A DNA stretch of 39,931 nt from a virus (lineage: Duplodnaviria > Caudoviricetes): the IMG/VR virus record IMGVR_UViG_3300032212_000056, positions 1 to 39,931 of that record; one strand, written 5' to 3'. This document shows, piece by piece, positions 1,726-33,817 of this stretch. Numbering within the stretch: the first letter of the stretch is position 1; each line of letters opens with the position of its first letter. A model generated the notes under the pieces. The model searched no databases. It was not told the origin of the DNA and saw only the letters and a program-made list of their open reading frames with translations. The position numbers and the translations under genes were made by a program.

Positions 1726-2222
1726 TAGGGATTAGGTCCACCCTTCATCTGATCTTCGAGGCGTTCGATCTCAGCCTGCAGTTCCGCTCGGAGCTTTCCC
1801 CGTTCGGCCTCCACCTCCTTGATGATTCGACGCTCTAGGTTTTCGAGGTGGGCTCTCATGTAGCCTTGGAACTCAGTCTGGGCTCTGCCCTGTGACTTGA
1901 GTTCGTCGTTGGTGTCTTCGACGCTGCGTGCCATGTCAGCGACGGTTGCTTTGATCTCTTTGACTTCTTCCTTGATGGCAGAGGTGTCCGAAGCTGTATC
2001 CTCAGCTGCCTTCGCCTCTGTCACTCCCGCACCTACGGTGTTGTTGAGGAAGTGACCGAAGCCTCCGCTGATCCCTCCTCCAAACACTGCCAAAAGCACT
2101 GCTCCCAGTACGACTGTCTTGATCTTGAATGTAATCACTGTAGTCCCCGCATCGTCAGGGTCTGGGTGTATAGCAGCTCCTTCGTTTGGTGCCATCATGG
2201 GTTGTCCAGCCTTCCTTGACAT
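1725..2222 (-). CDS. Membrane-anchored coiled-coil protein (possible lysis accessory / i-spanin-like)
   Basis: Hydrophobic segment TVVLGAVLLAVFGGG followed by a long heptad-rich helix; coupled to terL. Confidence 0.55.
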   Translation of the reverse strand: MSRKAGQPMMAPNEGAAIHPDPDDAGTTVITFKIKTVVLGAVLLAVFGGGISGGFGHFLNNTVGAGVTEAKAAEDTASDTSAIKEEVKEIKATVADMARSVEDTNDELKSQGRAQTEFQGYMRAHLENLERRIIKEVEAERGKLRAELQAEIERLEDQMKGGPNP

Positions 2223-2239
2223 AATGAGTGTTCATATTG

Positions 2240-2530
2240 TTATACAGGGAAGCAAGCGTCCCACGCATCACAGTATAGATTGTATGCGGCGTTTATGCAA
2301 ACCTGAGCTTGTGCGTTTGTAGGAAGTTGGAGACAATCGAGCACATCATTGAGGTAGACGACTCCTGCTGCCGTCGCACACTTCGTTTGTTCAGCGGTCG
2401 CACCTTGAGGGATGTCCTTGAGGACAGGCACCTTGATGCCTATGCCGACGAGGAGTACCTGTTGGTTTACAGTAGCTTGAAGAACTTGCATCTTGGCGAT
2501 GCGGTGAGTAACGATCATGCAGTGAGTCAT
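2240..2530 (-). CDS. Hypothetical protein (Cys-rich C-terminus)
   Basis: Fits the minus-strand operon; GAGGT RBS upstream. Confidence 0.6.
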   Translation of the reverse strand: MTHCMIVTHRIAKMQVLQATVNQQVLLVGIGIKVPVLKDIPQGATAEQTKCATAAGVVYLNDVLDCLQLPTNAQAQVCINAAYNLYCDAWDACFPV

Positions 2531-2571
2531 GTCTATACCTCAATGATGTGTGTAAGGTACACAGATCTGTG

Positions 2572-2808
2572 TTATTCCGAGGTTGCTTCGTCCACAATCA
2601 TGTTGAGGAGTTCAGTATCTCGGAGGAAGATGCTCTGTTCCGTCTCGCTCAACGATTCGTCAGCGTTGACGTAAGCGTCGTGACGTGCGGAGACATCCCG
2701 GAGGGGCTGGCTCACAGCGTTAGCGTTGATGGTCTGCGGAGGGCAGCAGCCCACGAGCAGAGTAGAGAGGGCAGCGAGCCCGATGGTTGATCCGATTTTC
2801 TTCTTCAT
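2572..2808 (-). CDS. Lipoprotein (possible o-spanin-like)
   Basis: MKKK, hydrophobic stretch and lipobox LLVG-C; AAGGAG RBS. Confidence 0.7.
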   Translation of the reverse strand: MKKKIGSTIGLAALSTLLVGCCPPQTINANAVSQPLRDVSARHDAYVNADESLSETEQSIFLRDTELLNMIVDEATSE

Positions 2809-2818
2809 GTCGATCTCC

Positions 2819-5134
2819 TTATGCTACAGATACTGTAGTAAGCCCTGCGGTCCGTCCTGCTTCGGTAGCAGAAATCATTGCCGCAACAGTGTCCTGAATC
2901 TCCTGCATGGTCTCTCGACCGTTGGGGAGGCTCAGTTCAGTGAACGTGTTGAGGACTGCGTCCTTGACCAAGTCACGCACCCACGATGCCTCTGTGGTTG
3001 AATCGTACGTTCCCACAGTGCCTTCGATGCGTTGGATGCCTTGGATCAGTCCAAATACAACCAAAGTTGCCATATCCCGGACCTCTGTTCGAGACCCGAA
3101 CTTGTTTTTGCCTTGAGGGTCGTCGAAGACTCTCAGCAAGTACGAGTAGATGCTCGGGAGCACTGCCTCGCGGAATGTGTTTTCGCGGTTCTGGATAAGC
3201 TCAGATCGTTCAGGGAAATCTTGATCTCCCTGAGTAGCGAAGTGAATGTCGTCTCCTGTAGACACTCCGCTGCCGTTGGTCGCAAAGTAGTCGTCCACGT
3301 CTCCGGGGACTTCAACATAACGAACAAGATCTGGTCGATTCAGCAGCCTGCACATCTCCTTTGCAACAACGTTGAGTGCATCTACTGAGCTATTGGTGTA
3401 TACCTGCCAATCGGAGGACCCACCTGTAGGATACGAGATTTGTCGATGCACCTTCACACTGATGTCAAGCTCGATGCACTTGTTCAAGAACGTTTCAAGC
3501 GAGTTGGTCAGTGTGGTTATCATGGCAATCGTGTTGGTGGAGTTCGTTCGGACCGAGCTAAAGTCGTTGACCATCCACTCCAACATCTCGATGCTCCCTC
3601 CCGCGATCTGATCGAGGTGGGCGAGGTTGTTCGTCACATATTCAGTGAACTTGCCTCCAGATCTGCCGAGAACAGTAAACATCGGACCGAGATGCTTAGA
3701 GGGTAGGCTGCTGGCTGCTCCGGGGATGAGCTTGCGTCCCTTCATTGCCATCTCTGTACTTGTAGACTGTCTGTTGAGCGTTTCCTGAGTAGGTGACAGT
3801 CCGTTGATGTCCGCTGCAACATACGATGACGCCATTGGAGATCTCTCGCCAGAGGATGCGAAGATTCCGTCGATCTCTGCATTTAGCACGGTGTACTTGA
3901 TCTTACCAATACGGGCATCTACAAAGTCGGCACACATCTCGCGTACCTTCTCTTTGATGTCGTCTGTCGCACCGTCGAGGATCTGTGAGCTGGTGCCTGC
4001 GGTCAGGTCTTCGAGCCCGATCTTGGTGACTCCTTGTGCCCTGTTGATTCGCAGTGCGTACCTGTTGTTGGCCTCGGTGTATGAGCAGATCTCGACGGTC
4101 TCTCCTCCTACTGTGAGATCGAGATCCCCTCCCGAGAACGAAAGCGACATCAGGTTGTCTCCGTCGAAGTCCAAGACCTCGATCACTACGACTCCTGATG
4201 CGTTCACTCGAATGCCATTCACGAGAACGATGTCGAACTGCTTGAATCGCTCCAGCTCTGTTGCGAGCTGCATGACTGTCCCAGACGCAGAGATCACTGC
4301 ACGGTGACGTCCGGGGTTGATTCCTCCGGAGGCGTACGCTGTGGGCGTGCAGTTGCCTGAGCCCGACAGGAACTCCCAGATGGACTGCGAGCCGTTCGAG
4401 GGTTCAATCGGACGGAAGGCATACCCCTGCTCCTCCTCGCGGACTGTGTCGATCGTGGTGCCGAATGATGCTTCGTTGTACTCGATAACGATCTCTCCGT
4501 TGCGGTCTCCGTAGAGTCGGCTTCGGACTTCGTCGTCTCCGTGTCCCCACATCTTCCACGAGAGCAAGTTTGCGAGCGTAGTGGCTGTCTGATCGTTCTC
4601 TGAGATGCCGACGCAGATGCCTCCGCAGTACAGAGCGTGACGCCCCGCTACAGACTGCTCGTTCTCCATGATGATCTCGACCATTGAGCCGAAGGGGATT
4701 CCCTCGACCGACTGGTAATCAACAGTGGTGCCTCCTGAGTAGCCGTCAAGGTCGATTCTCCATTGCTGTCCGCTAAAGTATGAGGACCCTGCGTAGATCT
4801 GGGAGATTGTTCTGTTGGTGTTGCCCAAGGGGGAGGTGTCGATGACCCGTCCATCTGCTCCCATGTTGACGAACGTAGGTGCTGCGTTGCGAATCAGGTT
4901 CAGTCCTGCACAGACTTTGAGCTTGTCCCCCACGTCGTCGGCGATGGTTGCGGGATCAGCCAGAACAACCACTTGAGTAGATCCCGACACGTTCTCAATG
5001 TACTTGCGTCCGAACTCGTCCACTCCATGCACAAAGTCCCCTGCCGATCCGGGAATGTCGTGAAGCCCTGTCGTGGCTTCGGTCGCGTTCCCGCTGGTGG
5101 GCCAGTCGGCTGTCGAGATTTTCGTGATGGTCAT
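2819..5134 (-). CDS. Large virion/receptor-binding-like protein with C-terminal SGNH-hydrolase-like domain
   Basis: 771 aa, beta-rich G/S/T N-terminal part; LGRSGG, WMVNDF and GDDIHF resemble SGNH blocks II, III and V. Confidence 0.55.
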   Translation of the reverse strand: MTITKISTADWPTSGNATEATTGLHDIPGSAGDFVHGVDEFGRKYIENVSGSTQVVVLADPATIADDVGDKLKVCAGLNLIRNAAPTFVNMGADGRVIDTSPLGNTNRTISQIYAGSSYFSGQQWRIDLDGYSGGTTVDYQSVEGIPFGSMVEIIMENEQSVAGRHALYCGGICVGISENDQTATTLANLLSWKMWGHGDDEVRSRLYGDRNGEIVIEYNEASFGTTIDTVREEEQGYAFRPIEPSNGSQSIWEFLSGSGNCTPTAYASGGINPGRHRAVISASGTVMQLATELERFKQFDIVLVNGIRVNASGVVVIEVLDFDGDNLMSLSFSGGDLDLTVGGETVEICSYTEANNRYALRINRAQGVTKIGLEDLTAGTSSQILDGATDDIKEKVREMCADFVDARIGKIKYTVLNAEIDGIFASSGERSPMASSYVAADINGLSPTQETLNRQSTSTEMAMKGRKLIPGAASSLPSKHLGPMFTVLGRSGGKFTEYVTNNLAHLDQIAGGSIEMLEWMVNDFSSVRTNSTNTIAMITTLTNSLETFLNKCIELDISVKVHRQISYPTGGSSDWQVYTNSSVDALNVVAKEMCRLLNRPDLVRYVEVPGDVDDYFATNGSGVSTGDDIHFATQGDQDFPERSELIQNRENTFREAVLPSIYSYLLRVFDDPQGKNKFGSRTEVRDMATLVVFGLIQGIQRIEGTVGTYDSTTEASWVRDLVKDAVLNTFTELSLPNGRETMQEIQDTVAAMISATEAGRTAGLTTVSVA

Positions 5135-11550: not shown

Positions 11551-11579
11551 AGGGTAGCACATGAACGACGCTCAAGCAA
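11551..11579 (-). promoter_or_regulatory. Leftward sigma70-type promoter
   Basis: Minus strand TTGCTT-17 bp-TACCCT with extended -10 TGn, upstream of the first leftward gene; 5' hairpin GCACGA-ccg-TCGTGC follows. Confidence 0.5.
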
Positions 11580-12100
11580 GGCCGAAATCGGTCATGCACG
11601 GATGTACACGTACAAAGGGGAGAAAATCTGAACGGTGAAAATGTACGGGTTTCCTGCACTTTTAGGGCGAAAACGGTCAAGTACAGGCCTCTTTTGTACT
11701 CGAACCGGGACAGTTTCCTGCACTCTGGACAAACTTTTGGGGTCGGACAAAAAATGGGGGTCACGTAATATCGCCTCCCCCCGTACGCGAACGGGAAAGC
11801 TCCTAGTAGCCTCTATAGACCGATCGGTACAGGTGCAGGGTACAGGTACGCCGACGCTACAGGAAACCCATAAGATACGGGCTCGATAGTTTCATGCACT
11901 CAGGCACCCCCCACAGTACAGGAAACCATACCCGTACCTAGCGGGGGTTTCCTGTACGCAAGTACCTACAACACTACAGGAAACCGTACCCGTACAAGTA
12001 CCAGACAGCCGGCGACACTACAGGAAACCCCTTTTATGAACAAAAAGGCTACTTTATGACAGGTACGCATAAAGCCCCATAGGGTCGTCAATATAGGGGC

Positions 12101-12475
12101 TAACTGGTTCAGGTACAAGCACTTAGCACGCATAGCTATAGTTTCCTGCACTCAGAAACCCGTACGGATGCACAGAGGCTGACGGATTGATCCGTACACA
12201 CTAAAGCCCTGATAAATAGACACTTATGCACTCCCTGTACGGATGCACGGATTTCTATATACTTGTTACGGGAGATCAATAAAAAGTAGAGTAGGGATAT
12301 GTTATTTTTAGAGAATAGTATAATATGGTCCTACAAATATCCGTGCATCCGTACGCCCACAGGCTAAAGCACTGGAACGCAAGCACTTGCAGCGTACAGA
12401 AAGCCCGCCCGCATCCGTTCCGATCCGTACGGATGCGATAGATATGCACCTAAACCATTGCAGCGTATAGAGTTG
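12101..12475. other. Putative replication origin / terminus: dyad-symmetric element with AT-rich core
   Basis: 16-bp perfect IR (12237-12252 / 12339-12354) around an 86-bp AT-rich core; four 25-bp TAA-N17-ASTTR boxes; further ATCCGTAC/GTACGGAT copies. Confidence 0.6.
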
Positions 12476-12555
12476 CTATCCGTGCATCATCCGTACACAA
12501 TCAAGGCTCTACACCGTGCCCCGTCCACCCTAGCCCCTGACGATCAAGCACGAGC

Positions 12556-12651
12556 CCACAGAGCAGGCAAGGCCCACAGAGAACCGCCACAGAGAGCCCC
12601 CACAGAGAGCCCCCACAGAGAGCACCCACAGAGAGCCCCCACAAAGCACGC
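12556..12651 (+). repeat. 13-bp tandem repeat (CCACAGAGAGCCC-like), 6 units plus 1 detached
   Basis: CCACAGAG cores at 12574, 12587, 12600, 12613, 12626 and 12639 (CCACAAAG), plus 12556. Confidence 0.9.
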
Positions 12652-12738
12652 CCGTATAGGTTTCCTGTACACTCGCCTAGATTATTCTGCGTTTCTATCC
12701 CCCACCACAGCCCCCAAACGCAGGAAACCGCAAGGAAC

Positions 12739-12800
12739 TTGATTTATTTTTGCTTTTATCTCATGCAAGGCCTTGACGCAGCCGATAGGTATGCTATCTT
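12739..12800 (+). promoter_or_regulatory. Rightward early sigma70-type promoter with UP-like tract
   Basis: AT-rich tract 12739-12760, TTGACG (12773-78), 16 bp, TGc-TATCTT (12795-12800). Confidence 0.65.
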
Positions 12801-12808
12801 CTCAGTAT

Positions 12809-12851
12809 CAAACAACCACAGCCCAGCGACGCAGGGCAGAAAGGCAGACCA
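12809..12851 (+). repeat. Early-gene leader repeat copy 1 (partial)
   Basis: AAACAACCACA-GCCC-agcgacgca-GGGC-AGAAAGGCAGACCA-ATG. Confidence 0.85.
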
Positions 12852-13409
12852 ATGAACGACGCACAACGCAAGGCCAAAGCAGACCACGCAGAGAACACCG
12901 CACAAGCACAGGCCGATAGCCTCCTCAAGCACTACACCGCAGAGAAGGCCGTAGAAATCGCAGAGGCTTGGATCGTAACCAATAAGGAACTACAGCACGG
13001 GGCATTCAGCGTAGAGACCTACACCCGTGCTATCGAGATCATCAAGGAACGCACAGCCGACGCAGCCCCCGCAAGCTACGAGCAAGCCCTCATCGAAGCC
13101 AACAAAGACGCCCCCGCCGATACGCTGATCAGAGCCCTGTACGAATCGGGCTGCACCGTTGTAGACTGCGAAGACGGCGAGGAGCTGGAAACCGTACAGG
13201 ATTGTCTAGAAATGTGGTACAGTGTGGACGAACTAACCCTAGACATCGAAGGCGATACGGTCTCCTCTTTTGTATCGTTGATCCATCAGGACAAGCACAA
13301 CAAGCCCAGCATGGAGGACATATCGAACTATGGCACGAGCCTAGAGACCATACCCGCTATCAAAGCCGCACTGACAGAGGAGACATACGCCCCCGTCTAC
13401 AGAATCTGA
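12852..13409 (+). CDS. Early hypothetical protein (acidic)
   Basis: 185 aa; starts directly after the leader repeat/RBS. Confidence 0.8.
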   Translation: MNDAQRKAKADHAENTAQAQADSLLKHYTAEKAVEIAEAWIVTNKELQHGAFSVETYTRAIEIIKERTADAAPASYEQALIEANKDAPADTLIRALYESGCTVVDCEDGEELETVQDCLEMWYSVDELTLDIEGDTVSSFVSLIHQDKHNKPSMEDISNYGTSLETIPAIKAALTEETYAPVYRI

Positions 13410-13494
13410 CCACAGACCACAACGCTAGGCGGTCTCAACGGACCGCCGCAGCGATTCAACAAACCACAGCCCGCAAGGGCAGAAAGGCAGACCA
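13410..13494 (+). repeat. Early-gene leader repeat copy 2
   Basis: CGCTAGGCGGTCTCAACGGACCGCCGCAGCG hairpin, AC-rich linker, GCCC-GCAA-GGGC, AGAAAGGCAG. Confidence 0.95.
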
Positions 13495-13767
13495 ATGCAA
13501 ACACCTACAGAGAACATCCTAAACGACAAAGCCTCAATCGTCCCAAGCATTCACAAAGCACGCAAGGCGAGCGGGGGCGGTTGGTGGCAATGGCTCGGCG
13601 AGTTCATCGACCACAAGGGAACCGGGCACCCTATCCGTATCAAGGGGTACGGCACTTGGATGCAACTATTCACGATCGACGGCATAAAGCACTGGTCCAC
13701 GCCCGATGGTAGGGTCAAGGATATGACAGCGGACCTACAGAAAGGCCTAGACACGCTGCCCGCATGA
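13495..13767 (+). CDS. Early hypothetical protein
   Basis: 90 aa, bounded by leader repeats on both sides. Confidence 0.8.
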   Translation: MQTPTENILNDKASIVPSIHKARKASGGGWWQWLGEFIDHKGTGHPIRIKGYGTWMQLFTIDGIKHWSTPDGRVKDMTADLQKGLDTLPA

Positions 13768-13852
13768 ACCACAGCCCACAACGCTAGGCGGTCTCAACAG
13801 ACCGCCGCAGCGATTCAAACAACCACGCCCGCAAGGGCAGAAAGGCAGACCC
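13768..13852 (+). repeat. Early-gene leader repeat copy 3
   Basis: Near-identical to copy 2. Confidence 0.95.
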
Positions 13853-14389
13853 ATGAACACCACAGACCGCCACGAGGTACACCACAGCGACGACGCAGGC
13901 CCTAGCCCTATCCACTGGACCACGCCCGCCGCAGAGCATCGCAAGCCGCAGACCGTGTACACCAACGGGAACCATGCACGCTACACAATCAAAGTACAGC
14001 GGAACGCCTACCTGTCAATCAGCGGGGACAAGCTGCACCATATCGGATGCACCTACAGAATCAGAGTAGAGGACAAGGCCGGGGAGCTGATCGGCTACGG
14101 TCATACGGGCGAGGTGCTTGCACTGGTTCGCATCGTGGAGGACCAAGTAGGCGAGGCGACAGGACGCACGCTCTATCGAGACCTAAAGACCGCAGGCGTA
14201 GAGCTGGACAAGCACGAATCAGACCTATACGCACTCGATACCCCGGACGCACGCCGCATCATCGCACAACACGGGCACGAGCTGCAACCATTCCAAAGCA
14301 ACGCAGACCGCCGCCAATGGCTAGAGCTGCCTTTCCAGTATGATCCATTCTGGGACAAGGTAGAGGAACGCAGCCGCCGCAAGGCATGA
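13853..14389 (+). CDS. Early hypothetical protein with HESDLY...PFxYDPFW domain
   Basis: 178 aa; the C-terminal motif resembles an uncharacterised domain of phage/conjugative leading regions. Confidence 0.8.
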   Translation: MNTTDRHEVHHSDDAGPSPIHWTTPAAEHRKPQTVYTNGNHARYTIKVQRNAYLSISGDKLHHIGCTYRIRVEDKAGELIGYGHTGEVLALVRIVEDQVGEATGRTLYRDLKTAGVELDKHESDLYALDTPDARRIIAQHGHELQPFQSNADRRQWLELPFQYDPFWDKVEERSRRKA

Positions 14390-14478
14390 ACCACAGCACA
14401 CCCGCTAGGCGGTCTCAACGGACCGCCGCAGCGATTCAAATAACCACAGCCCAACAGGGCAGAAAGGCAGGCGACAGC
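14390..14478 (+). repeat. Early-gene leader repeat copy 4
   Basis: Same hairpin as copy 2; GCCC-AACA-GGGC; AGAAAGGCAG. Confidence 0.95.
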
Positions 14479-16764
14479 ATGAACGCAGAGCAAGCACAAC
14501 AGGCAGAGAACCGCAACACTTGGACCAGTGAAGCCGGACCCATTCAGACCAAACGAGTAGAGAAGGCCCTAAGCAAGTTCCGTCAAGCCTCAATAGGATA
14601 TATCGAGCTATGGGGTACACGAGGCGAGGACGAACACCGCAGCCATATTGTAGAACTGGGCCTAGGGTCTGGAGGTTCGCCGATGGTGCCCGCATCGGTT
14701 GAGAAGCTGCAGAGCATCGGCGAGGCGTACGGCTGGACAATCACAAGCAAGAATCATAAGGAGATTATCGGCGAACTGGAGGAGGCCGCCAAAGGTGTAG
14801 AGCTGCCAATCGTGGACAAGCTACGCAGCCCGGAAACCGTAGCCAAAGAGAAAGCAGAGCAGGCAGAGAGAGACGCAGCACGCAAGCAAGCACAAGCCGC
14901 AAGGGATGAGGATTGGTCTAAGATCATCGCCAAGGCACCCGCCAACGCTACAGCGGTCATCGTTGCCGAATATGAGGTAGACGACTGCGACAGCATGACG
15001 GACTATTTCAACGCCACAACGGACCGCCGAGTAGTTATCGGATTTAGGACCGGCAAGCGTGAAGATTTCAAGCAGTTGAGAGCCGCCGCCGCAGGCTTTG
15101 AAGAAACCAAGCACCTAGGCCCCGGTTGCGAACGCTGGACCATCCGAGCGATCGACAAGGGCGACGGTATGCACCATGTTCCCTACGATCTCCAGCGGGC
15201 AGAGTATGCGACAGAGGCAGAGGCCCTAGACGCTATCGAGCAGAGCGAAGGGACCGCAGGACTGGACCAATACGAGGCCCGCAGCGAATCCATCGAGCAC
15301 CGCGAAAACTACTCAATGGGAGCAGGTAACTACCTGAAATCAGGGCACCGATATAGTACAGGCTGGGCGGTCCGTTCCCGTGCATTGTCCACAAGTACGC
15401 ACTATGACCACGAGGACGGTGTACCCGAGAAGGCAGTACACGAGGCAAGCACGGACCACAGCCCAGCCCTAGAGGGTGCAGGGTACAGCATCCAAACGCA
15501 CTACCATACCAAGCGGGAAACAGATTTCTATATCGTGGTCCTAGACGACCGGGTAGAGCGTTCCGAGTTTGACGCTATCCGCTCCAGCTGCAAGGCCGCA
15601 GGGGGCTGGTATTCTCGCAAGTGGGGCAGCACGCCGGGAGGCTTCGCATTCATGGACCGGACCGCCGCAGAGAACTGGGCACGCTCAGAGTTTGGAGGCG
15701 ACGCACCAACGGACCCGGACGGGGACCGCTACCCCTTAGCAGAGGGGGAGAGCTTTGCAGCCCCATTCGGGGGAGCACCTGCCCCCGGTTGTGGTCCCAA
15801 GAATGACGGACGGCACCGCCAAGCCGCAGCGTTTCGAGTTCTTGCCGACAGACTGGGCAAGGATACGGACGCAGGGCAACGCACAGAGAACACGCCCAAG
15901 CAACGCAGGCAGGCGAGTCTAGCACGAGCCAACGCAAGCAACGCCCAGCACGCCCAGACCGCAGCCGCAGCCATTGCCGACGCACTGGAGGCGGGGACCT
16001 TGCCGGATTCGTTGAAGTCCGTACCCTGTACGCTTGCGGGATTGAAGAAGATCACAGCCCGCCGCATTGAGAGCGGACCGGGATACTATGACACCTTCTA
16101 CCCGACTGACGAGCTGGAGGTAGAAGACTCTCAGGCCGAGACTCTGAGGGACTGGATTCAGGGACTGGGCAAGGATACAGGACCAACGCCCGAGGAGCTG
16201 AAAGCACAGGCAGAGCGTGCAAGCGTACTGCACGAGAAGATCCCCGGATTCTTCCCGACACCCACAGAGGCAGCTCAACGCATGGTAGAGGCCGCAGGAC
16301 TCAGTACAGGGGACTGCGTACTCGAACCGTCCGCAGGCCGGGGAGACCTTGCCGACGCTATCGAGGAAGCTATCGGACCGGCTGGGGTGCTCCACTGTAT
16401 CGAAGTCAATCAACGACTCGCCGCACTTCACAGCTCAGAGACTCGACCCGTTCACTGTCTCGACTTCACAGAACAGGACCCCCGAGACTGGGACCAGTGC
16501 GATGCGGTCATTATGAACCCACCGTTTGAGAATGGACAGGACCGGCAGCACATTCTCCACGCTTGGGAGTTCCTGAAACCGGGCGGCTGCCTCGTGGCGA
16601 TCTGTTCCCCCGGCTCATTGACGAACAGCAGAGGGAACTATATCAACGGATTCAAGCGTTGGTTCAGTGACCACGATGTAGAGGTATTGGATAAGGAGGT
16701 CGGAGGATTCGCAGCGACCAAGATTCAAGCCGTAATGATTCGAGCATACAAACCACAGGACTGA
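14479..16764 (+). CDS. Polyvalent protein with C-terminal N6-adenine DNA methyltransferase domain
   Basis: FFPTP, VLEPSAGRG (motif I), IMNPPF (motif IV), LKPGG; N-terminal DSMTDYF / EHRENYSMGAGNYL and GGWYSRKW domains; start moved to ATG 14479 after the leader RBS. Confidence 0.85.
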   Translation: MNAEQAQQAENRNTWTSEAGPIQTKRVEKALSKFRQASIGYIELWGTRGEDEHRSHIVELGLGSGGSPMVPASVEKLQSIGEAYGWTITSKNHKEIIGELEEAAKGVELPIVDKLRSPETVAKEKAEQAERDAARKQAQAARDEDWSKIIAKAPANATAVIVAEYEVDDCDSMTDYFNATTDRRVVIGFRTGKREDFKQLRAAAAGFEETKHLGPGCERWTIRAIDKGDGMHHVPYDLQRAEYATEAEALDAIEQSEGTAGLDQYEARSESIEHRENYSMGAGNYLKSGHRYSTGWAVRSRALSTSTHYDHEDGVPEKAVHEASTDHSPALEGAGYSIQTHYHTKRETDFYIVVLDDRVERSEFDAIRSSCKAAGGWYSRKWGSTPGGFAFMDRTAAENWARSEFGGDAPTDPDGDRYPLAEGESFAAPFGGAPAPGCGPKNDGRHRQAAAFRVLADRLGKDTDAGQRTENTPKQRRQASLARANASNAQHAQTAAAAIADALEAGTLPDSLKSVPCTLAGLKKITARRIESGPGYYDTFYPTDELEVEDSQAETLRDWIQGLGKDTGPTPEELKAQAERASVLHEKIPGFFPTPTEAAQRMVEAAGLSTGDCVLEPSAGRGDLADAIEEAIGPAGVLHCIEVNQRLAALHSSETRPVHCLDFTEQDPRDWDQCDAVIMNPPFENGQDRQHILHAWEFLKPGGCLVAICSPGSLTNSRGNYINGFKRWFSDHDVEVLDKEVGGFAATKIQAVMIRAYKPQD

Positions 16765-16775
16765 TTTAGAATGCT

Positions 16776-16849
16776 CCACAGTTGCCCGCCCTAGCGGACG
16801 GGTACACTGTTTGAACAAACCACAGCCCCGCAGGGCAGAAAGGCACGCC
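16776..16849 (+). repeat. Early-gene leader repeat copy 5 (divergent first hairpin)
   Basis: ACAGT...cTAGCg...ACTGT hairpin, then AACAAACCACA-GCCC-CGCA-GGGC-AGAAAGGCA. Confidence 0.85.
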
Positions 16850-17590
16850 ATGAACTTCCTAGAGAAAGATAACATAGTCCGCACACTTGACGAGGCACGC
16901 ACAAAACTCCGAGACCTTGAGCACGACGGGGGACCGAACCACGATGTACTGTTTGAGGAGCTGGAGAATACAATCATGCACGCAGTTCAGCAGGTACAGC
17001 AGTGCGGTACAGGTGAGGGATCAATGGACCGGCACCAAGTACGCATGGTGATGGGCTGGCTCAAGAGCTTGATAATCCCCGAGTCTGGATGCACAGCGGA
17101 CGCAGCAGAGAAGACTATGGGACTGATTCGACAGCTTCACAAGCCCCGCATCGTGAACATCGTCATAGAAGGGGGCAAGGTCCAAAATGTACTCAAGTCT
17201 CCCGGTGTTGAGGTGACTGTAGAATATCCAGACGGAGACAGTCACAAAGCAGTCTCATACCCCGCAGACATTGCAGCATTCGACGACGACATCGACCACA
17301 CTATCGAGCCGATCGCGTTCGAGCGTGACAGCTTCAACCCGTTGAACATTCTCCCCGGTGCAAAGACGACGACCTACTACGCCAATGTCAACGGCGAGCC
17401 GTACGCCGCAGTGTTCCAAGATTGGCCGTACCCTCCCGAGTACGATAATGACGACGGGTTCACCCGACTGCAGCGGGGAGTCGAGAACCCACAGGGCGGC
17501 TATGACTGGATCACTGTACCATCGGCTGCACGCGAGGTAGAGGTAGCCCAACGCATGAGGGACTGCACTCTGCGATACTCCGATGCCTAG
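16850..17590 (+). CDS. Early hypothetical protein
   Basis: 246 aa from ATG 16850 after the leader; contains IVIEGGKVQNV. Confidence 0.8.
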   Translation: MNFLEKDNIVRTLDEARTKLRDLEHDGGPNHDVLFEELENTIMHAVQQVQQCGTGEGSMDRHQVRMVMGWLKSLIIPESGCTADAAEKTMGLIRQLHKPRIVNIVIEGGKVQNVLKSPGVEVTVEYPDGDSHKAVSYPADIAAFDDDIDHTIEPIAFERDSFNPLNILPGAKTTTYYANVNGEPYAAVFQDWPYPPEYDNDDGFTRLQRGVENPQGGYDWITVPSAAREVEVAQRMRDCTLRYSDA

Positions 17591-17612
17591 TCCGACCGTG
17601 TAACGACCTGCC

Positions 17613-17675
17613 GATCGGGGGTGGTTCCCCGGTCTCCAGCCCTGCCCCTAACCGGGCAGGGGACTGGATTTCAAG
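17613..17675 (+). terminator. Tandem hairpins, possible terminator/processing site
   Basis: GATCGGGG-gtggtt-CCCCGGTC, then TCCAG-CCCTGCCC-ctaacc-GGGCAGGG-ga-CTGGA followed by TTTC. Confidence 0.45.
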
Positions 17676-17743
17676 TTCTCTCAAGTGGAAGGAAAGGAGG
17701 CTAGTATGAATGATTAGCTAACAAGCACAGCAATGAATGCAAA

Positions 17744-17816
17744 GGTGTCCAGTTCTAGCGGACTGGGCACCGATTAGAAAACAACCAAGCCCGACAGGGC
17801 AGAAAGGCAGACGACC
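17744..17816 (+). repeat. Early-gene leader repeat copy 6 (divergent first hairpin)
   Basis: GGTGTCCAGTT-cTAGCg-GACTGGGCACC hairpin, then AAAACAACCAA-GCCC-GACA-GGGC-AGAAAGGCAGAC. Confidence 0.85.
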
Positions 17817-18230
17817 ATGAAACCAGCTATGCTCAAGCCGGAGCGAAAGAAACTAATCAAAGCATTGCCGGAACTATTGAAAGCTCACGGCCTGCAACTT
17901 CGACTGCAATACTCTCCCATGAAAGGCAGGGGAGAGACCGATCTAGTATGGCACGGGTACAATGACCGATTTGATTGCAACTTTACTGTACGGCCTATCA
18001 TCGACGAACACCCTTGGCTGGCTTGCTGCTTCAACAGACCGCGAGGTAGAACATCCAATACCAATATGAAGTACAGAGACATACGAGATCACTTGGGCAG
18101 TGATGTGAATCCCCATGTCGGCAAGTTCAACTGTCACCTGTTTGAGCGATGCTCTGTAGCATACGCATTGGAGGTATTCGATAGGCACTTAGCACTGATG
18201 AGCAGGAAAGGAGAGCAGTTGAATGCCTGA
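17817..18230 (+). CDS. Hypothetical protein
   Basis: 137 aa after the leader; VNPHVGKFNCH motif. Confidence 0.75.
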   Translation: MKPAMLKPERKKLIKALPELLKAHGLQLRLQYSPMKGRGETDLVWHGYNDRFDCNFTVRPIIDEHPWLACCFNRPRGRTSNTNMKYRDIRDHLGSDVNPHVGKFNCHLFERCSVAYALEVFDRHLALMSRKGEQLNA

Positions 18231-18480
18231 CCTAATCGACAGACCCGACTTGTGCGTCATGCTCACCGTCTTCAAGATGACGGGCAAATACTACACCAGT
18301 GCGAGCTACTACCACACCGAGATAATCGCACCACGCATTGATGAGATATGGTCGGAGGTGCGTGGGTATCTCAAAGCAGGCAAGCTCCCCGGACTCATGG
18401 AGGGACACGACGCAGACTGGATCGTTCTCGTAGAAGTCCCAGACCATCCACACAATCACCCCAAACTTATCATCGGATGA
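18223..18480 (+). CDS. Hypothetical protein
   Basis: 85 aa; AAAGGAG RBS; FKxTGKYY motif seen in small phage proteins. Confidence 0.75.
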   Translation: MPDLIDRPDLCVMLTVFKMTGKYYTSASYYHTEIIAPRIDEIWSEVRGYLKAGKLPGLMEGHDADWIVLVEVPDHPHNHPKLIIG

Positions 18481-18494
18481 GAAGGAAGACTGAA

Positions 18495-18689
18495 ATGACA
18501 GACTTCGAGATAGCGTGCAGAGATGAAGGATGGGAACAGTCCGCGACAGGCTCGATCGTCTACGCAGGGACCAGCGATCCTGTAGACTGGGAGAAGGCAG
18601 ACCCTATGGCAGCTATGGCAGTGTTGTTCAGCGGCAAGGGTCCAAGTAAAGAAATCGAAGCAGCACTTTGGAAAGGATTGAACAGATGA
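18495..18689 (+). CDS. Hypothetical protein (64 aa)
   Basis: ATG 18495 behind GAAGGA; ATGA coupling to the next gene. Confidence 0.65.
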   Translation: MTDFEIACRDEGWEQSATGSIVYAGTSDPVDWEKADPMAAMAVLFSGKGPSKEIEAALWKGLNR

Positions 18690-19168
18690 AATCACTACTC
18701 TTATTCCCCGCAACATTCGCACTCATCGCAGCATCCCCGGATGTAGAGCGACTGGACTCCAGCACGATCCAGATCGTCGGAGCAGACTTCGCAATCATCG
18801 AGCCGACCGCAGACATTACCGCAGGCGTTCCGATCCCCGTGCTCAGCGGGGCATGGGGTGGACTGATTCGGGCGACTGTTGATCCATACACGGACTACAC
18901 AGTCACGACCTACACGCTGGTCGATGGTGCAGACGGGGAAGATCCTCTCCGAGAGATCGAGGAGTTTGATCTCAGTCTTACCCCTCTGCAACAGCTCGAC
19001 GCAGCAGTCGTCAATGTCCTGTACTGGCAGGAGCAGCACCAGCAGTCTCTCGACAACCTTGGCGTATGGGAGCAGCAGCTCAGAGACATCGTAGCGGACC
19101 AGACAAACGGAGTGGACTACTTCGATCTGATCGAGGCCCTGCAACGAGCACAGCCGGGAGGTGGGTGA
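18686..19168 (+). CDS. Secreted protein (signal peptide), possible degenerate dockerin/EF-hand-like tail
   Basis: MKSLLLFPATFALIAA signal peptide; GAAAGGA RBS; C-terminal ADQTNGVDYFDLIEAL. Confidence 0.65.
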   Translation: MKSLLLFPATFALIAASPDVERLDSSTIQIVGADFAIIEPTADITAGVPIPVLSGAWGGLIRATVDPYTDYTVTTYTLVDGADGEDPLREIEEFDLSLTPLQQLDAAVVNVLYWQEQHQQSLDNLGVWEQQLRDIVADQTNGVDYFDLIEALQRAQPGGG

Positions 19169-19365
19169 TGTTTAGGATCATACTACTCGCAGTGTTCATC
19201 ATTCCTGCCTACCTCAGCTCACTGTTGACCATCATCCTGATGTATATCGCACTCGGACCGGACGGAGCACGCAGAGTGTTCAGAGCTTTCGGCTCCAAGA
19301 GAGAAGTCAAGGGATTCATGGCACGGATGCACGAGGCAGCCGATAGATCAAAGAGAGGTGGATGA
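19168..19365 (+). CDS. Small membrane protein
   Basis: MFRIILLAVFIIPAYLSSLLTIILMYIALG; TGATG coupling; GGAGG RBS. Confidence 0.65.
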   Translation: MFRIILLAVFIIPAYLSSLLTIILMYIALGPDGARRVFRAFGSKREVKGFMARMHEAADRSKRGG

Positions 19366-19625
19366 TGTCTGGAACATTTAGAAAGTTCAGCGACCGTGTA
19401 GACATCATCACCAGCGACAAGCCAAGGCGACGGGGCGAGGTGTTCCTCAAGCTCGACGGTAAGTTCTCGGTCAAGGTGTACAAAGAGAACGAGGACGCGA
19501 TGGCACTCGCAGAGCGTATCGCTATGTTCCTCACGGTCATGGACGGACCGGCTTGGGAGACTGCTTGGCAGCCAGCAAAGCCCATGAAGACAGAAGTACA
19601 GGGTACTTGGAAAGACATTGAATGA
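19362..19625 (+). CDS. Hypothetical protein
   Basis: 87 aa; GAGGTG RBS; overlap-coupled. Confidence 0.7.
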   Translation: MMSGTFRKFSDRVDIITSDKPRRRGEVFLKLDGKFSVKVYKENEDAMALAERIAMFLTVMDGPAWETAWQPAKPMKTEVQGTWKDIE

Positions 19626-19801
19626 GGCTCTGGCCCCGACACATACGACTGGCGATCAAAATGCTTTACACTCGATCAAAGAACGACTACCCGACCCCGC
19701 CCAAGCAGCGTCCTCCTCTCAAGCACGGGATCGAGGCACTGGTTTCGATAGCGGTGTGGAGTGCAATGGGCATAGGTTTAGCACTCCTGTACATCCTCTA
19801 A
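19622..19801 (+). CDS. Small membrane protein (59 aa, not in ORF track)
   Basis: Hand-translated MRLWPRHIRL...ALVSIAVWSAMGIGLALLYIL; ATGA coupling. Confidence 0.55.
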   Translation: MRLWPRHIRLAIKMLYTRSKNDYPTPPKQRPPLKHGIEALVSIAVWSAMGIGLALLYIL

Positions 19802-19814
19802 GGACAGGCCTACC

Positions 19815-19937
19815 ATGAAGAACCCTCGACGGAAAGTCATACCGATCTGGCCCATCTATGCGTACGCTGGAGCCTGCTGGATCATCATCATCACCGCAGT
19901 CATTGTGAAGACTGCACAAGCCCTATTGGGCAGTTAG
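19815..19937 (+). CDS. Small membrane protein (40 aa, not in ORF track)
   Basis: Hand-translated MKNPRRKVIPIWPIYAYAGACWIIIITAVIVKTAQALLGS; fills the gap exactly. Confidence 0.55.
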   Translation: MKNPRRKVIPIWPIYAYAGACWIIIITAVIVKTAQALLGS

Positions 19938-19945
19938 GATCAGAA

Positions 19946-20422
19946 ATGTCAATGAACCCAAACCAACTCCAAGGCAAGATGCTTCTCAGCTTCACCTGTT
20001 TGCTCGACTTCCAAGGCAAGTTCTATGTGAACTCCCATGTTCAGCTCAGGGACTCCGAGGAGCTGCCCAACTTCGACCAGTGTATCAAGATGCACGCAGC
20101 CTGCTTGTCTCAGGTGGACGAGAAAGCCCGTGAGTTGATCGAGCAGCACACAGAGAACGAGGTCGAGCACAAGGACGCTCTCCGCTTCTACGACGAGTGC
20201 ATCGTGAAGACCATTCAGGGAGTCGAGGACCGCGAGTTTATCGAGGCCCTTCGCACCCGCGACATCCACGATGCAAGTCAGGACCCGCTCGGTGGAATCG
20301 CTGGCGTGGTCGAGGCAGCTCGCCTTGTACTGGTAGCTGATAAGAACGACAACAGCGGAGAGCATATAGAGGCAATCCGCACTCTCCGGCTCAAGCTCAA
20401 GGAGATCGGTATCGAGGAGTGA
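19946..20422 (+). CDS. Hypothetical protein
   Basis: 158 aa, operon-coupled, coding-like codon usage. Confidence 0.75.
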   Translation: MSMNPNQLQGKMLLSFTCLLDFQGKFYVNSHVQLRDSEELPNFDQCIKMHAACLSQVDEKARELIEQHTENEVEHKDALRFYDECIVKTIQGVEDREFIEALRTRDIHDASQDPLGGIAGVVEAARLVLVADKNDNSGEHIEAIRTLRLKLKEIGIEE

Positions 20423-20673
20423 ACATGGACGCCGAGCAACGCAAAGCATATGTGCAGATGATCGCTCGAAACGATCAGGAGATGGAAGCGGGCAAGTCGT
20501 GGATGCACCGAGCAGGATACCTCGGCATCAACCGACTCAACGCCCAACTCCATCACCAGATGGGCAGTCCCGACGGGGGACAGCAGGCGATCGCACGCTT
20601 TGCGTTGATTGGCATGAGAGCCGTAGCAGTAGCTGAAATGGAACGACAGGAACAGGAAGGATCAGACCAATGA
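20419..20673 (+). CDS. Hypothetical protein
   Basis: 84 aa, overlap-coupled at both ends. Confidence 0.7.
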   Translation: MNMDAEQRKAYVQMIARNDQEMEAGKSWMHRAGYLGINRLNAQLHHQMGSPDGGQQAIARFALIGMRAVAVAEMERQEQEGSDQ

Positions 20674-21314
20674 CATCTAACATCGCGTACGAAATCAAGC
20701 ACGAACAGGATCTATGCAGCAGGGACTTCTATCTGGTGCTGGGTGAAGACCTCCTCGCGGAGATCGAGCAGGCATCGAAGGATGAGAAGGCACTTGCCCT
20801 CAAGCGTAAAGCATTCATCAAGAAGAACAAGGCACGCAACCTCATGCACAACGGGGACGACATCGTTGCACTTGTACTCCTCGAAGGCAGAGAACCTGTA
20901 CAGCCCGGCATGAAGCTCGCCAACCCGAAGGCCCGCATGTGGCAAAGACACAGTCCTTGGATGACATACAGAGGACGCAAGTATATGTACTGGGTTCCCG
21001 GAACCACCTCTCGCAAGAAAGAAGACAAGAACATAGCCGAGGAGACCCACAAGCTGTTCCGCTCCATGAACACTGTGAACGGAGGCGATCGAGTCATGGC
21101 GGTTGCGGAAGGCTCACTGAGTCGAATCTGCATCTGCGATGAGCGTCAGATTATGACCAACCCACAGCTTCTCAAGGCAGGCGACAACTACATCATCACG
21201 GTCAGCCGGGGAGACAAGGACAAGGTCGGAGAGGAGCGTCAGGTCGAAGGTATGACATTGCTCAAACCATCGGAGGCGTTTGCTCTGTTCGCTGAACACG
21301 AGACCGGCAAATGA
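20670..21314 (+). CDS. Hypothetical protein
   Basis: 214 aa; GAAGGA RBS; coupled. Confidence 0.75.
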   Translation: MTSNIAYEIKHEQDLCSRDFYLVLGEDLLAEIEQASKDEKALALKRKAFIKKNKARNLMHNGDDIVALVLLEGREPVQPGMKLANPKARMWQRHSPWMTYRGRKYMYWVPGTTSRKKEDKNIAEETHKLFRSMNTVNGGDRVMAVAEGSLSRICICDERQIMTNPQLLKAGDNYIITVSRGDKDKVGEERQVEGMTLLKPSEAFALFAEHETGK

Positions 21315-21796
21315 GCTTCGCAGAGGATGAGGGATGGGACGGCTTCGACTTCGATCTGCATCCTCACGATGACCGCAGATATTTCTACGAGCAGGGAGAT
21401 CATCGACCCGAATGGTACGAGAATCCAGTCTCGATGAAGCAGCTGCGTCGGCTGGGAGAGTGGATGGTCATCCCCAAATGCCCGAAGTGTGGGGCTCATG
21501 CTAAAGGGAACAGGACAGACTTTGGGATAGAGCACCGCTGTTGCGGTCTTCGATCTCGAAACTTCAAACCTCTCGTAACCGAGGGCACGCTCAAGGCGAG
21601 GATGCTTGCACACGAGGCCTTCGATCAAATATGGGGGCACGGATACATGACGAGACCCGAAGCGTATGCGTGGCTTGCAAGCAAGATGGGAATGAAGAAG
21701 CGTCGTTGCCACATGGCGATGATGACAGAAGACGAATCACTCAAGGTGTACTTTCTGAGTGCATCCTACATCGAAGAATCGAGGAACAAACAATGA
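21311..21796 (+). CDS. DUF3268-like zinc-finger protein
   Basis: CPKCG...CC, ARMLAHEAFDQIW, RPEAYAWLASKMG, CHMAMM. Confidence 0.8.
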   Translation: MSFAEDEGWDGFDFDLHPHDDRRYFYEQGDHRPEWYENPVSMKQLRRLGEWMVIPKCPKCGAHAKGNRTDFGIEHRCCGLRSRNFKPLVTEGTLKARMLAHEAFDQIWGHGYMTRPEAYAWLASKMGMKKRRCHMAMMTEDESLKVYFLSASYIEESRNKQ

Positions 21797-22191
21797 AAGA
21801 CCCACGACGCGAGCACATGCCCGACACCCGATCCAGCAAGACCGGGAAGGCTCAGGTTGACAGTGTAGAGTTCTATGTAACGATCAGCTTCTTCGACGAT
21901 GTTGATCGAGACGATGCCCGTCCCGGAGAGATGTTCATCCGCATGAGCAAGCATGGCAGCGACCTGTCCCTCATGTACGACGCTCTGGCTGTCATGGTCT
22001 CTGTCTCGCTCCAGTACGGGGTGCCTTGGCAGAAGATCAAAGAGAAGTTCGAGCACAGCCGGGGATCTACCTCAGATCACGAGAACCCCAGCATCCTTCA
22101 TGGCATCATCATGCTGGCTGACAGACTTATTTCAGAATATCGAAGTGAGACTCAAGCCATGCAGGACGATGTGTCGATAGAAGGTGCATGA
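21793..22191 (+). CDS. Stand-alone TSCPD domain protein (class II ribonucleotide reductase C-terminal-like)
   Basis: FYVTISF, PGEMFIRMSKHGS, DALAVMVSVSLQYGVP; start at ATG 21793 (GAGGA RBS). Confidence 0.75.
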   Translation: MKDPRREHMPDTRSSKTGKAQVDSVEFYVTISFFDDVDRDDARPGEMFIRMSKHGSDLSLMYDALAVMVSVSLQYGVPWQKIKEKFEHSRGSTSDHENPSILHGIIMLADRLISEYRSETQAMQDDVSIEGA

Positions 22192-22305
22192 ACAGAAGAA
22201 TCAACAACGCACGCACCGTAGATCAACAAAACTTCCACCTCTGCCGTCACCTGATGAGAAAGGATCAGCGGCACGCACAGGCCCGAGCATTACTGGAGAG
22301 CATCT

Positions 22306-22665
22306 ATGCCAAGGATCAACCCCGGAAAGAAGCAGCCCAAGCTGCACCCGGACCTAAAGACACTCAAGCGACTCCTCGGGCACGTCGAGCTGGATGACAG
22401 CGGCTGTTGGATCTGGCAGAAGTACAAGGACCCAGACGGATACGGGCAGGTGAAGATCGCAGGCAAGAGACTGTCTGCACATCGGGTGTTCTACTCGATC
22501 TTCAAACGCTCGATCGCTGAGGGTGACGAGGTCGATCACATCTGCGAGAACCCTGCATGTTGCAATCCCATGCACCTCAAGAGGTGCTTGCCTGACTACA
22601 ACAGGGCTCAGGGTGGACGAAACTCACGGAAGAACATCACGGATGATGACCTTCCTCCGTTCTAA
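22306..22665 (+). CDS. HNH endonuclease
   Basis: SGCWIW, DGYGQ, AHRVFY, VDHICENPACCNPMHL. Confidence 0.9.
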   Translation: MPRINPGKKQPKLHPDLKTLKRLLGHVELDDSGCWIWQKYKDPDGYGQVKIAGKRLSAHRVFYSIFKRSIAEGDEVDHICENPACCNPMHLKRCLPDYNRAQGGRNSRKNITDDDLPPF

Positions 22666-22712
22666 CTACACGATGGAGTGGACCAAAGAAGACCCGGTCT
22701 ATATCTAGTGAC

Positions 22713-33722: not shown

Positions 33723-33817
33723 GGGAAGGTACGCTAAGTTGGCATGTGCGGCCCTCATCGGTGGTCAGCGTTGGATGAGCAACGTGTGACATGCAGGTTC
33801 GAGTCCTGTCCTTCCCT
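33723..33817 (+). tRNA. tRNA-like RNA with aberrant anticodon arm and long extra arm (identity undetermined)
   Basis: Acceptor stem GGGAAGG/CCTTCCC, T8A9, D-arm CGC-TAAGTTGGCATGT-GCG, T-arm GCAGG-TTCGAGT-CCTGT; no canonical 5-bp/7-nt anticodon arm; no encoded CCA. Confidence 0.6.

What the first reader, a model, noticed from the sequence alone, without database searches (positions are those of the whole stretch)
12809..17816. Array of early genes each packaged behind a conserved structured leader (gene-cassette system)
Seen: six consecutive early genes (12852, 13495, 13853, 14479, 16850, 17817) are each preceded by the same module: [long hairpin with YARC tetraloop] - [A/C-rich linker AAACAACCACA] - [GCCC-N4-GGGC hairpin] - AGAAAGGCA - ATG. 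Copies 2-4 are about 85-bp near-identical repeats that fill the whole intergenic space. Copies 5-6 keep the hairpin shape with different sequence. The one change in the copy-3 long hairpin turns U-G into U-A, and the GCCC/GGGC stem is invariant while its loop varies. This points to selection on RNA structure. Only copy 1 has a visible promoter. Known analogues: T7 early RNase III sites, lambda boxB (GCCC...GGGC stem) and T4-type PeSL cassettes. Inference: a system that cuts or stabilises one early transcript into separately translated mRNAs and/or lets unrelated anti-defence genes be swapped by recombination between leaders. The five uncharacterised cargo genes are prime anti-defence candidates.
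Basis: partly seen in the sequence, partly recalled or inferred. Interest (0 to 1): 0.85.

Follow-up and report, generated by a model that had tools for sequence, protein, structure and literature searches.

The report
Repeated RNA connector between phage genes
An uncultured phage puts the same short two-hairpin spacer between its first early genes, which likely protects the end of one message and starts translation of the next and could serve as a gene-swapping point; it is real and uncatalogued but resembles known phage gene cassettes.

Summary
The repeat is real. Six copies of an A/C-rich linker, GCCC/GGGC hairpin and AGAAAGGCA ribosome site precede six consecutive early genes (0 expected by chance). 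Copies 2-6 also carry a 12-bp tetraloop hairpin; copy 1 has the only strong promoter there instead. The long hairpin covaries across copies (59 of 60 cells paired), and copies 2-5 keep an 85-89-nt stop-to-start length with the hairpin 13-14 nt after the stop. So the unit is likely two parts: a 3' hairpin for the upstream gene and a standard 5' leader for the downstream gene, probably split by a host endonuclease (untested). No Rfam match and no copy in 79 related loci. However, 9 of 24 distant relatives have their own private repeated leaders, and their shared cargo is reordered. Crossover at the leaders is not shown. BoxB is unlikely; RNase III is undecided. Anti-defence roles are unsupported, except for a mosaic adenine methyltransferase. 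Closest kinds: T4 PeSL, mycobacteriophage SAS/ESAS, stem-loop processing operons. This scan has noted similar modules on other DNA many times (133 notes match the search words). Side lead: oriented GGACT arrays with 13-bp period across the family.

The parts
12773..12800 (+). sigma70-type early promoter (TTGACG-16-TG.TATCTT); predicted start near 12807
   Evidence: among the 3 best-scoring + positions in the window; start site inferred
12807..12851 (+). copy 1: leader only (A/C linker, GCCC/GGGC hairpin 12821-12837 with 9-nt loop, SD 12838-12844); no long hairpin
12852..13409 (+). g1, 185 aa acidic orphan (36 D/E vs 15 K/R)
   Evidence: only itself found
13410..13494 (+). copy 2 (85 nt): long hairpin 13423-13453, linker, short hairpin 13469-13480, SD 13481-13487
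13495..13767 (+). g2, 90 aa, no family match
13768..13852 (+). copy 3 (85 nt): long hairpin 13782-13812, short hairpin 13827-13838, SD 13839-13845
13853..14389 (+). g3, 178 aa, no family match
14390..14478 (+). copy 4 (89 nt): long hairpin 14403-14433, short hairpin 14449-14460, SD 14461-14467
14479..16764 (+). g4, 761 aa mosaic protein with C-terminal N6-adenine methyltransferase (NPPF); relatives carry LPD29 in a part g4 does not share
   Evidence: start at 14479 supported by N-terminal alignment to P0156
16765..16849 (+). copy 5 (85 nt, diverged): long hairpin 16779-16809, short hairpin 16825-16836, SD 16837-16843; weak promoter-like site overlapping the long hairpin (16782)
16850..17590 (+). 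g5, 246 aa near-orphan (2 partial relatives among 1.84 billion representatives)
17610..17717 (+). extra double hairpin, then a strong SD (17691) with a 3-codon frame at 17706; possible scar of a lost gene
   Evidence: interpretation inferred
17744..17816 (+). copy 6: perfect 12-bp hairpin 17744-17771, short hairpin 17789-17800, SD 17801-17807
17817..18230 (+). g6, 137 aa basic protein, no family match

Best explanation
The repeat is a structured 85-nt spacer between early genes that likely works at the RNA level as a two-part connector: its long hairpin would protect and insulate the 3' end of the upstream gene's message, and its G-poor linker, short hairpin and ribosome site would give the next gene the same ready-to-translate leader that the first gene gets from the promoter. 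One sigma70 promoter (12773) would make a single early transcript (inferred). A host endonuclease would likely cut at the foot of the long hairpin or in the unpaired linker, leaving separate stable messages (inferred, untested). The unit spread by duplication and gene conversion (inferred from near-identical copies 2-4), so it also offers 20-37-nt exact patches where unrelated genes could be inserted or deleted with expression signals intact (possible by-product, crossover not shown). Shown: repeat, positions, covariation, constant spacing. Step odds: structure real 0.95; leader role 0.85; 3' protection or insulation 0.6; actual cleavage 0.4; used as crossover point 0.5.
For:: 59 of 60 cells paired, 4 of 8 pairs of the upper stem change on both sides, 0 of 500 shuffles reach the covariation score, slid controls pair 22-48%; stop-to-start 85, 85, 89, 85 nt and stop-to-hairpin 13, 14, 13, 14 nt for copies 2-5, although copy 5 shares only 56 of 87-91 aligned positions with the others. 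Copy 1 matches the others only from 12808, next to the predicted start site; linker unpaired 0.90-0.98, short hairpin paired 0.99-1.00, SD unpaired 0.50-0.80. A short GCCC/GGGC hairpin directly before AGAAAGG is common in unrelated phages: about 1700 stretches vs about 690 for a non-pairing control (rough estimates), and 65 of 96 distinct contexts are followed by an ATG frame. No U-tract after the long hairpin on + and no good promoter in copies 2-4, 6. 9 of 24 relatives have 3 or more look-alike leaders before early genes, none of 25 loci has such a set among genes downstream of the primase. Shared cargo is reordered, e.g. A,B,C,D in L212 vs A,D,B in L229. Precedent for stem-loops as cleavage signals and end protectors: PMC10311766 (abstract and section 12 read).
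Against: No expression, end-mapping or cleavage data. Covariation rests on five paralogous copies, three nearly identical, i.e. about three independent sequences; the structure was drawn from these same sequences. The model finds no copy in 79 primase-related loci, so there is no cross-genome covariation. In relatives the stop-to-hairpin offset is spread over -1 to 26 nt (28 of 71 junctions have such a hairpin) and several leader sets have no long hairpin (L138, L212) or hold a promoter (L205). In the control, CAGAAAGG without hairpin is also followed by an ATG frame in 24 of 45 cases. Invariant letters in the 3' arm (RGAC) and the strand-biased CCACAG motif could mean protein binding instead. 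None of g1, g2, g3, g5, g6 occurs in any fetched locus.
Confidence: 0.5

Rival explanations
1. The long hairpins are T7-type RNase III sites: a single cut near the foot of the 12-bp stem leaves a hairpin on the upstream message and frees the leader.
For: [quoted passage not shown] The hairpins have 12 pairs and a tetraloop; copy 6 has adjacent U-A/U-G pairs near the loop, the preferred distal box.
Against: Natural R1.1 is 49 nt, these are 28-31 nt. The basal four pairs are three G-C and one U-A/A-U, whereas the proximal box prefers A-U and G-C acts as antideterminant. The U-A/U-G pair set is not kept in copies 2-5. Host and its RNase III rules are unknown.
Confidence: 0.15
2. The unit is a binding site for a phage or host protein (RNA-binding antiterminator or translational regulator, or a DNA-binding regulator) that switches all six genes together.
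For: Sequence is conserved beyond pairing needs: invariant RGAC at the start of the 3' arm, invariant GCCC/GGGC (never varies), CCACAG 22 on + vs 0 on - in 12-18 kb, family-wide oriented GGACT arrays. SAS/ESAS were proposed to be protein sites (PMC3203893 passages).
Against: Short-hairpin loop varies in sequence and length (4-9 nt), unlike boxB (recalled); no boxA-like site in the leaders; compensatory changes argue for shape over sequence; no candidate regulator recognised among window proteins (about 17 kb of the genome is missing from the window).
Confidence: 0.15
3. PeSL-type terminator-plus-promoter cassettes: each long hairpin stops or attenuates upstream transcription and each copy restarts it.
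For: Copy 5 has TTGCCC-15-TACACT inside its hairpin, a PeSL-like geometry (PMC2839356 passages). Relatives L205 and L215 have promoter-like hexamers inside their repeated leaders.
Against: Copies 2, 3, 4, 6 have no usable sigma70 site (1039-3847 and 370 positions score as well); no U-tract after the hairpins; spacer 15 in copy 5 vs 16-17 in the 7 strict relatives' promoters. A non-sigma70 promoter cannot be excluded.
Confidence: 0.1
4. REP-like brake: a hairpin within 15 nt of the stop codon stalls the terminating ribosome and lowers or uncouples translation of the upstream gene.
For: Offset 13-14 nt in four of four copies that follow a stop; REPs under 16 nt from a stop are reported to stall ribosomes and trigger cleavage (PMC12306157 passages citing earlier work).
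Against: Copy 6 is far from g5's stop; offsets are not fixed in relatives; damping first-expressed genes is hard to reconcile with strong leaders (inference).
Confidence: 0.06
5. Mainly a duplication by-product: an ordinary strong ribosome site and ordinary 3' hairpins copied along with gene gains, with no dedicated role.
For: Each relative has a private leader; hairpin-before-SD is common in phages.
Against: Diverged copy 5 keeps length, offset and pairing.
Confidence: 0.04

Closest known systems
PeSL cassettes of T4-type phages (Arbiol 2010, PMC2839356, passages read; Comeau 2014, PMC4122927, part 1 of 3 read)
   Same: Repeated intergenic unit from stop codon to SD and ATG, with a stem-loop, flanking orphan genes in a variable early region; proposed crossover points.
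   Different: PeSLs contain a sigma70 promoter and act as terminators; here four of five hairpin-bearing copies lack a promoter, there is no U-tract, and there are two hairpins. Mini-circles and breakpoints were shown for PeSLs, not here.
SAS/ESAS of Cluster K mycobacteriophages and Cluster EF Microbacterium phages (PMC3203893, PMC7302621, passages read)
   Same: Over-conserved ribosome-site motif before non-structural genes, one orientation, ATG starts, lineage-specific sequence, often with an upstream extension.
   Different: ESAS inverted repeats were judged not to form RNA hairpins; here the upstream element covaries as a hairpin. Sequence is unrelated.
Selective RNA processing and stabilisation by intergenic stem-loops, cip-cel operon (PMC10311766, abstract and section 12 read)
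   Same: GC-rich intergenic stem-loops without U-tract, cleavage downstream of the stem-loop, protection of both new ends.
   Different: There the stem-loops differ from each other and set stoichiometry in a bacterial operon; here one unit is repeated in a phage and processing is not shown.
T7 early RNase III sites, R1.1 (PMC8708148, PMC1540722, passages read)
   Same: Hairpin between early genes of one transcript; size equals the minimal substrate.
   Different: Much shorter than natural R1.1, G-C-rich base, repeated sequence plus second hairpin.
Lambda boxB/nut (recalled, no call)
   Same: GCCC...GGGC stem after an A/C-rich stretch.
   Different: Loop not conserved, no boxA-like site, sits against the SD, six copies.

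Membership tests
PeSL | sigma70-like promoter inside every unit | tested here: not met
   strong in copy 1 only, weak in copy 5, none in 2, 3, 4, 6
PeSL | stem-loop in an intergenic unit spanning stop codon to SD/ATG | tested here: met
   (copies 2-5)
PeSL | stem-loop terminates or attenuates transcription | not testable with these tools
   no + strand terminator called at the copies; activity needs a reporter
PeSL | gene gain/loss breakpoints or mini-circles at the units | tested here: inconclusive
   no close relative; contigs of run X1 show no joint across copies; cargo reordered only among distant relatives
SAS/ESAS | over-conserved SD-containing motif a few nt before ATG of non-structural genes, one orientation | tested here: met
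   6 of 6 on +, early region only
SAS/ESAS | upstream inverted repeat that does not behave as an RNA hairpin | tested here: not met
   covaries as a hairpin
SAS/ESAS | motif shared across related phages | tested here: inconclusive
   absent from 79 distant relatives; no close relative available
RNase III site (E. coli rules) | helix of at least 11-12 bp below a tetraloop | tested here: met
   12 pairs in copies 2-6, with a 1x2 loop in 2-5 and one mismatch in 5
RNase III site (E. coli rules) | UA/UG distal box and AU-rich proximal box | tested here: inconclusive
   by inspection only copy 6 has adjacent UA/UG; basal pairs mostly G-C; cut register and host unknown
RNase III site (E. coli rules) | cleavage shown | not testable with these tools
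   no RNA holder listed
lambda nut/boxB | conserved GNRA-like loop (recalled) | tested here: not met
   loops GCAA x2, AACA, CGCA, GACA, 9-nt
lambda nut/boxB | boxA upstream (recalled motif) | tested here: not met
   17 one-mismatch matches, 20.6 expected, none in a leader
Rfam families incl. self-cleaving ribozymes | match at gathering score | tested here: not met
   (best E 0.42, outside the leaders)
Polyvalent / DarB-like anti-restriction protein (g4) | adenine methyltransferase in a mosaic multi-domain protein | tested here: met
Polyvalent / DarB-like anti-restriction protein (g4) | SF2 helicase fused C-terminal and LPD36 N-terminal to the methylase (PMC5512222 passage) | tested here: not met
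   g4 ends after the methylase; no helicase or LPD match

The most novel reading that the evidence does not exclude
A promoter-less, RNA-level gene-cassette system: one early transcript is cut at a standard two-hairpin connector into separately stabilised messages, and the same connector is the crossover point where orphan host-takeover genes are plugged in. Each member of this large uncultured phage family (about 55-58 kb) would have evolved its own private connector, alongside a family-wide oriented GGACT 13-bp-period protein-docking code in the same region.
Probability: 0.22. Interest if true: 0.68.

Novelty: new variant of a known kind. Interest (0 to 1): 0.42.

Why it matters
If right, it shows a compact way for a phage to gain unrelated early genes with expression built in and without a promoter per gene, and it gives an 85-nt natural part (3' protector plus insulated ribosome site) that can be tested in a two-gene reporter. 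Leaders of this kind also mark where the fast-changing early genes of an unstudied phage family sit. The general idea is in print (PeSL, SAS/ESAS), and this scan has met similar modules often, which limits the surprise.

Tried and rejected
Rfam: nothing at gathering score in the window or in leaders of six relatives; nothing useful by E-value. Close relatives: none in GenBank phages, best polymerase hit 25%; the one 61% relative in viral contigs lacks the early region; g4 search found no locus; the tighter leader pattern gave 5 unrelated contigs. L127 is the window itself and was not counted as a relative. Searches for near relatives of L212 and L138 leaders gave only the same contig or unrelated phages. 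Sequencing runs: no RNA holder listed. Contigs of run X1, possibly the source sample, give a circular genome of about 57 kb, break at the copy 2/4 repeat and show depth 14.6 vs 17.7 for the g2-g3 block, with no joint that skips it; this cannot show or exclude deletion. Antisense partner (lead from earlier notes): no complement of a leader longer than 13 nt in the window; the 10-of-11 match at 12686 lies in its own local hairpin; the missing 17 kb was not searched. A fixed stop-to-hairpin distance is not a family rule. Fold look-alikes for g1 and g3 were all below TM 0.4 by query. Literature: combined-term searches for such a cassette gave 0, 3 and 1 unrelated papers; GGACT with phage, repeat, motif gave 4 papers whose listings are not about such arrays (listing only). 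The library lacks most subscription papers; no supplements were read, and motif tables in such supplements could hold this element.
Full report
Setting. The window is a partial phage genome: terminase, portal, protease and decoration genes, primase, exonuclease, helicase and family A polymerase. Contigs of one run close it to a circle of about 57 kb, and the primase has 63 strong relatives at 30-65% identity plus one weak hit, many on 52-58 kb contigs. The host is unknown. The six genes lie directly after a 1-kb non-coding stretch and a good sigma70-type promoter at 12773.

Observation. The pattern GCCC-N(3-9)-GGGCAGAAAGG occurs six times, all on +, none expected, each just before an ATG. Copies 2-4 fill their intergenic spaces and are 83-92% alike, with exact stretches of 20-37 nt. 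Copies 2-6 carry a long hairpin with a CAAC or TAGC loop. Copy 1 does not: its likeness to the others begins at 12808, where transcription from the promoter is predicted to start. Copy 6 follows a 226-nt gap that also holds a double hairpin and a strong ribosome site with a three-codon frame.

Structure. On an alignment of copies 2-6 the 8-bp upper stem and the 4-bp short stem are paired in 59 of 60 cells; 4 of 8 upper pairs change on both sides; 0 of 500 shuffles reach the covariation score and slid registers pair 22-48%. By inspection copy 5 also keeps the 4-bp basal stem with two both-side changes. The caveat is that three copies are near-identical and the structure came from these sequences. 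The short stem never varies, so it gives no covariation evidence. Ensemble folding in context keeps the linker open (0.90-0.98), the short stem closed and the SD mostly open. Copies 2-5 measure 85, 85, 89, 85 nt from stop to start and place the long hairpin 13, 14, 13, 14 nt after the stop, although copy 5 is only about 63% alike. I read this as two parts: the long hairpin belongs to the upstream gene's 3' end, the rest is the downstream gene's leader.

How special are the parts? AGAAAGG is an ordinary Shine-Dalgarno sequence (established knowledge). The short hairpin in front of it is common in unrelated phages: about 1700 stretches hold the pattern against about 690 for a non-pairing control (estimates from partial scans, inflated by redundant gut phages). 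65 of 96 distinct contexts among 120 sampled matches are followed by an ATG frame, against 24 of 45 for the same SD without hairpin. No Rfam family matches. A covariance model from copies 2-6 finds the six window copies, nothing below E 4 in 79 primase-related loci, and weak hits in three of five loci picked by the leader pattern.

Relatives. A primase alignment fetched 130 loci. I examined 25 with about 6 kb or more upstream of a long primase match, after dropping duplicates and weak partial hits; one (L127) is the window itself. Using a between-locus null (99.9th percentile), 9 of the 24 relatives have three or more look-alike upstream regions before early genes (L138 eleven, L204 six, L212 six, L203 four plus three, L215 four, L202, L205, L213, L222 three); none of the 25 has such a set downstream of the primase. 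The leaders are private to each genome and differ in kind: SD-only (L138, L212), with promoter (L205), with hairpins (L202, L203, L215). Among 574 upstream frames of 33 loci, shared cargo is patchy and reordered, for example L212 versus L229, and L138 versus L188 in reversed order. This fits modular exchange but cannot place breakpoints, as these phages are too distant. Searches for close pairs failed. A strong hairpin after the stop occurs at 28 of 71 examined junctions in relatives, at offsets from -1 to 26 nt, so the 13-14-nt rule is local.

Cargo. g1, g2, g3, g5 and g6 match no Pfam, NCBIfam or PADLOC family, and PHROGs gives only two weak unnamed hits for g1. g1 finds only itself, g5 two partial relatives, g1 and g3 no usable look-alike; g2 and g6 were not searched against the large protein collections. 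g1 is acidic, which is compatible with but no evidence for DNA mimicry. g4 is a widespread mosaic protein ending in an adenine methyltransferase; some relatives carry LPD29 in a region g4 lacks, linking it loosely to polyvalent early-phase proteins (PMC5512222, passages). The region 12.3-22.7 kb avoids ACGT (1 seen, 29 expected) while the rest does not, which suggests exposure to restriction early in infection (inference).

Mechanism. Most likely one promoter makes one early transcript, and each connector protects the upstream 3' end and hands the next gene a standard insulated leader, with or without a cut between the two hairpins; intergenic stem-loops doing this are described for the cip-cel operon (PMC10311766, abstract and section 12). 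Confidence 0.5; cleavage itself 0.4. RNase III is possible since 12 bp plus tetraloop is the minimal substrate size (PMC8708148, PMC1540722, passages), but the stem bases are G-C rich (0.15). A protein-binding role is open because RGAC, GCCC/GGGC and CCACAG are conserved beyond pairing (0.15). Promoter-terminator cassettes fit only copy 5, weakly (0.10). A REP-like brake fits the 13-14-nt offset (PMC12306157, passages; 0.06). BoxB fails on loop and boxA (definitions recalled).

Novelty. It works like a PeSL or SAS/ESAS cassette joined with stem-loop processing, but fails PeSL membership (no promoter per unit) and the ESAS non-hairpin trait. I found no paper on this element (open-access library only, no supplements read). 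Earlier notes of this scan describe similar modules in other genomes (133 notes hold the search words; none on this genome or with this sequence); they are unchecked and I use them only as context and for the antisense and ribozyme leads, both negative here. Verdict: real, uncatalogued, new variant of a known kind; interest 0.42.

Side lead. Upstream of the primase, GGACT occurs 560 times on + and 157 on - over the 25 loci, with a spacing peak at 13, 26 and 39 bp. GGACT-N8-GGACT is present in 13 of 24 relatives and once in the window (16149, inside g4): 62 pairs upstream on +, one downstream, none on -, none in 80 unrelated loci of 553 kb. It is the most widespread 5-mer spacing in these regions. 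It likely marks a protein-docking array and may deserve its own study more than the leader does.

Noticed in passing
window 16149-16166; L138, L179, L188, L191, L205, L212, L213, L216, L220, L222, L224, L229, L239 upstream of the primase: Family-wide oriented GGACT-N8-GGACT arrays (13-bp period, up to five units), inside genes and just before start codons, only on the early coding strand. Binding protein unknown; not found in print by one search.
   Followed up: partly
window 11649-12670: Ten copies of GTTTCCTGYAC (up to one mismatch) in both orientations in the non-coding region before the early promoter; 12 in the whole window vs 1.06 expected. Operator, origin or packaging array.
   Followed up: partly
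window 12573-12643: 13-bp tandem repeat CCCACAGAGAGCC, 5.5 copies, 130 bp before the promoter; same period as the GGACT arrays, and CCACAG also recurs in the leaders (22 on + vs 0 on - in 12-18 kb).
   Followed up: partly
whole window; 12300-22700: GCGC, AATT and TTAA are absent from all four regions examined; ACGT is absent only from the early region (1 vs 29 expected) and CTAG is common only at 10-18 kb: region-specific restriction-site avoidance.
   Followed up: partly
window 11561-11584: A stretch resembling the first 24 nt of g1 lies on + at the far side of the non-coding region (seen by eye); remnant or chance.
   Followed up: no
window 17691-17737: Strong SD with a 3-codon frame; the following 30 nt resemble the last codons of g4 at about 70% with gaps. 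Possible scar of a deleted cassette; weak.
   Followed up: partly
window 36432-39356: Portal (minus strand) and head protease (plus strand) genes are divergently arranged, and the terminase is far from both: unusual structural gene layout.
   Followed up: no
window 33723-33817: ARAGORN calls a tRNA-Asp with ATC anticodon overlapping an ORF; Rfam does not; probably spurious.
   Followed up: no
L121 6577 and 6802; many of L001-L120: Short GC hairpin directly before an AGAAAGG ribosome site recurs in unrelated phages, often before scaffold-like or small genes: a general, uncatalogued translation-start design.
   Followed up: partly
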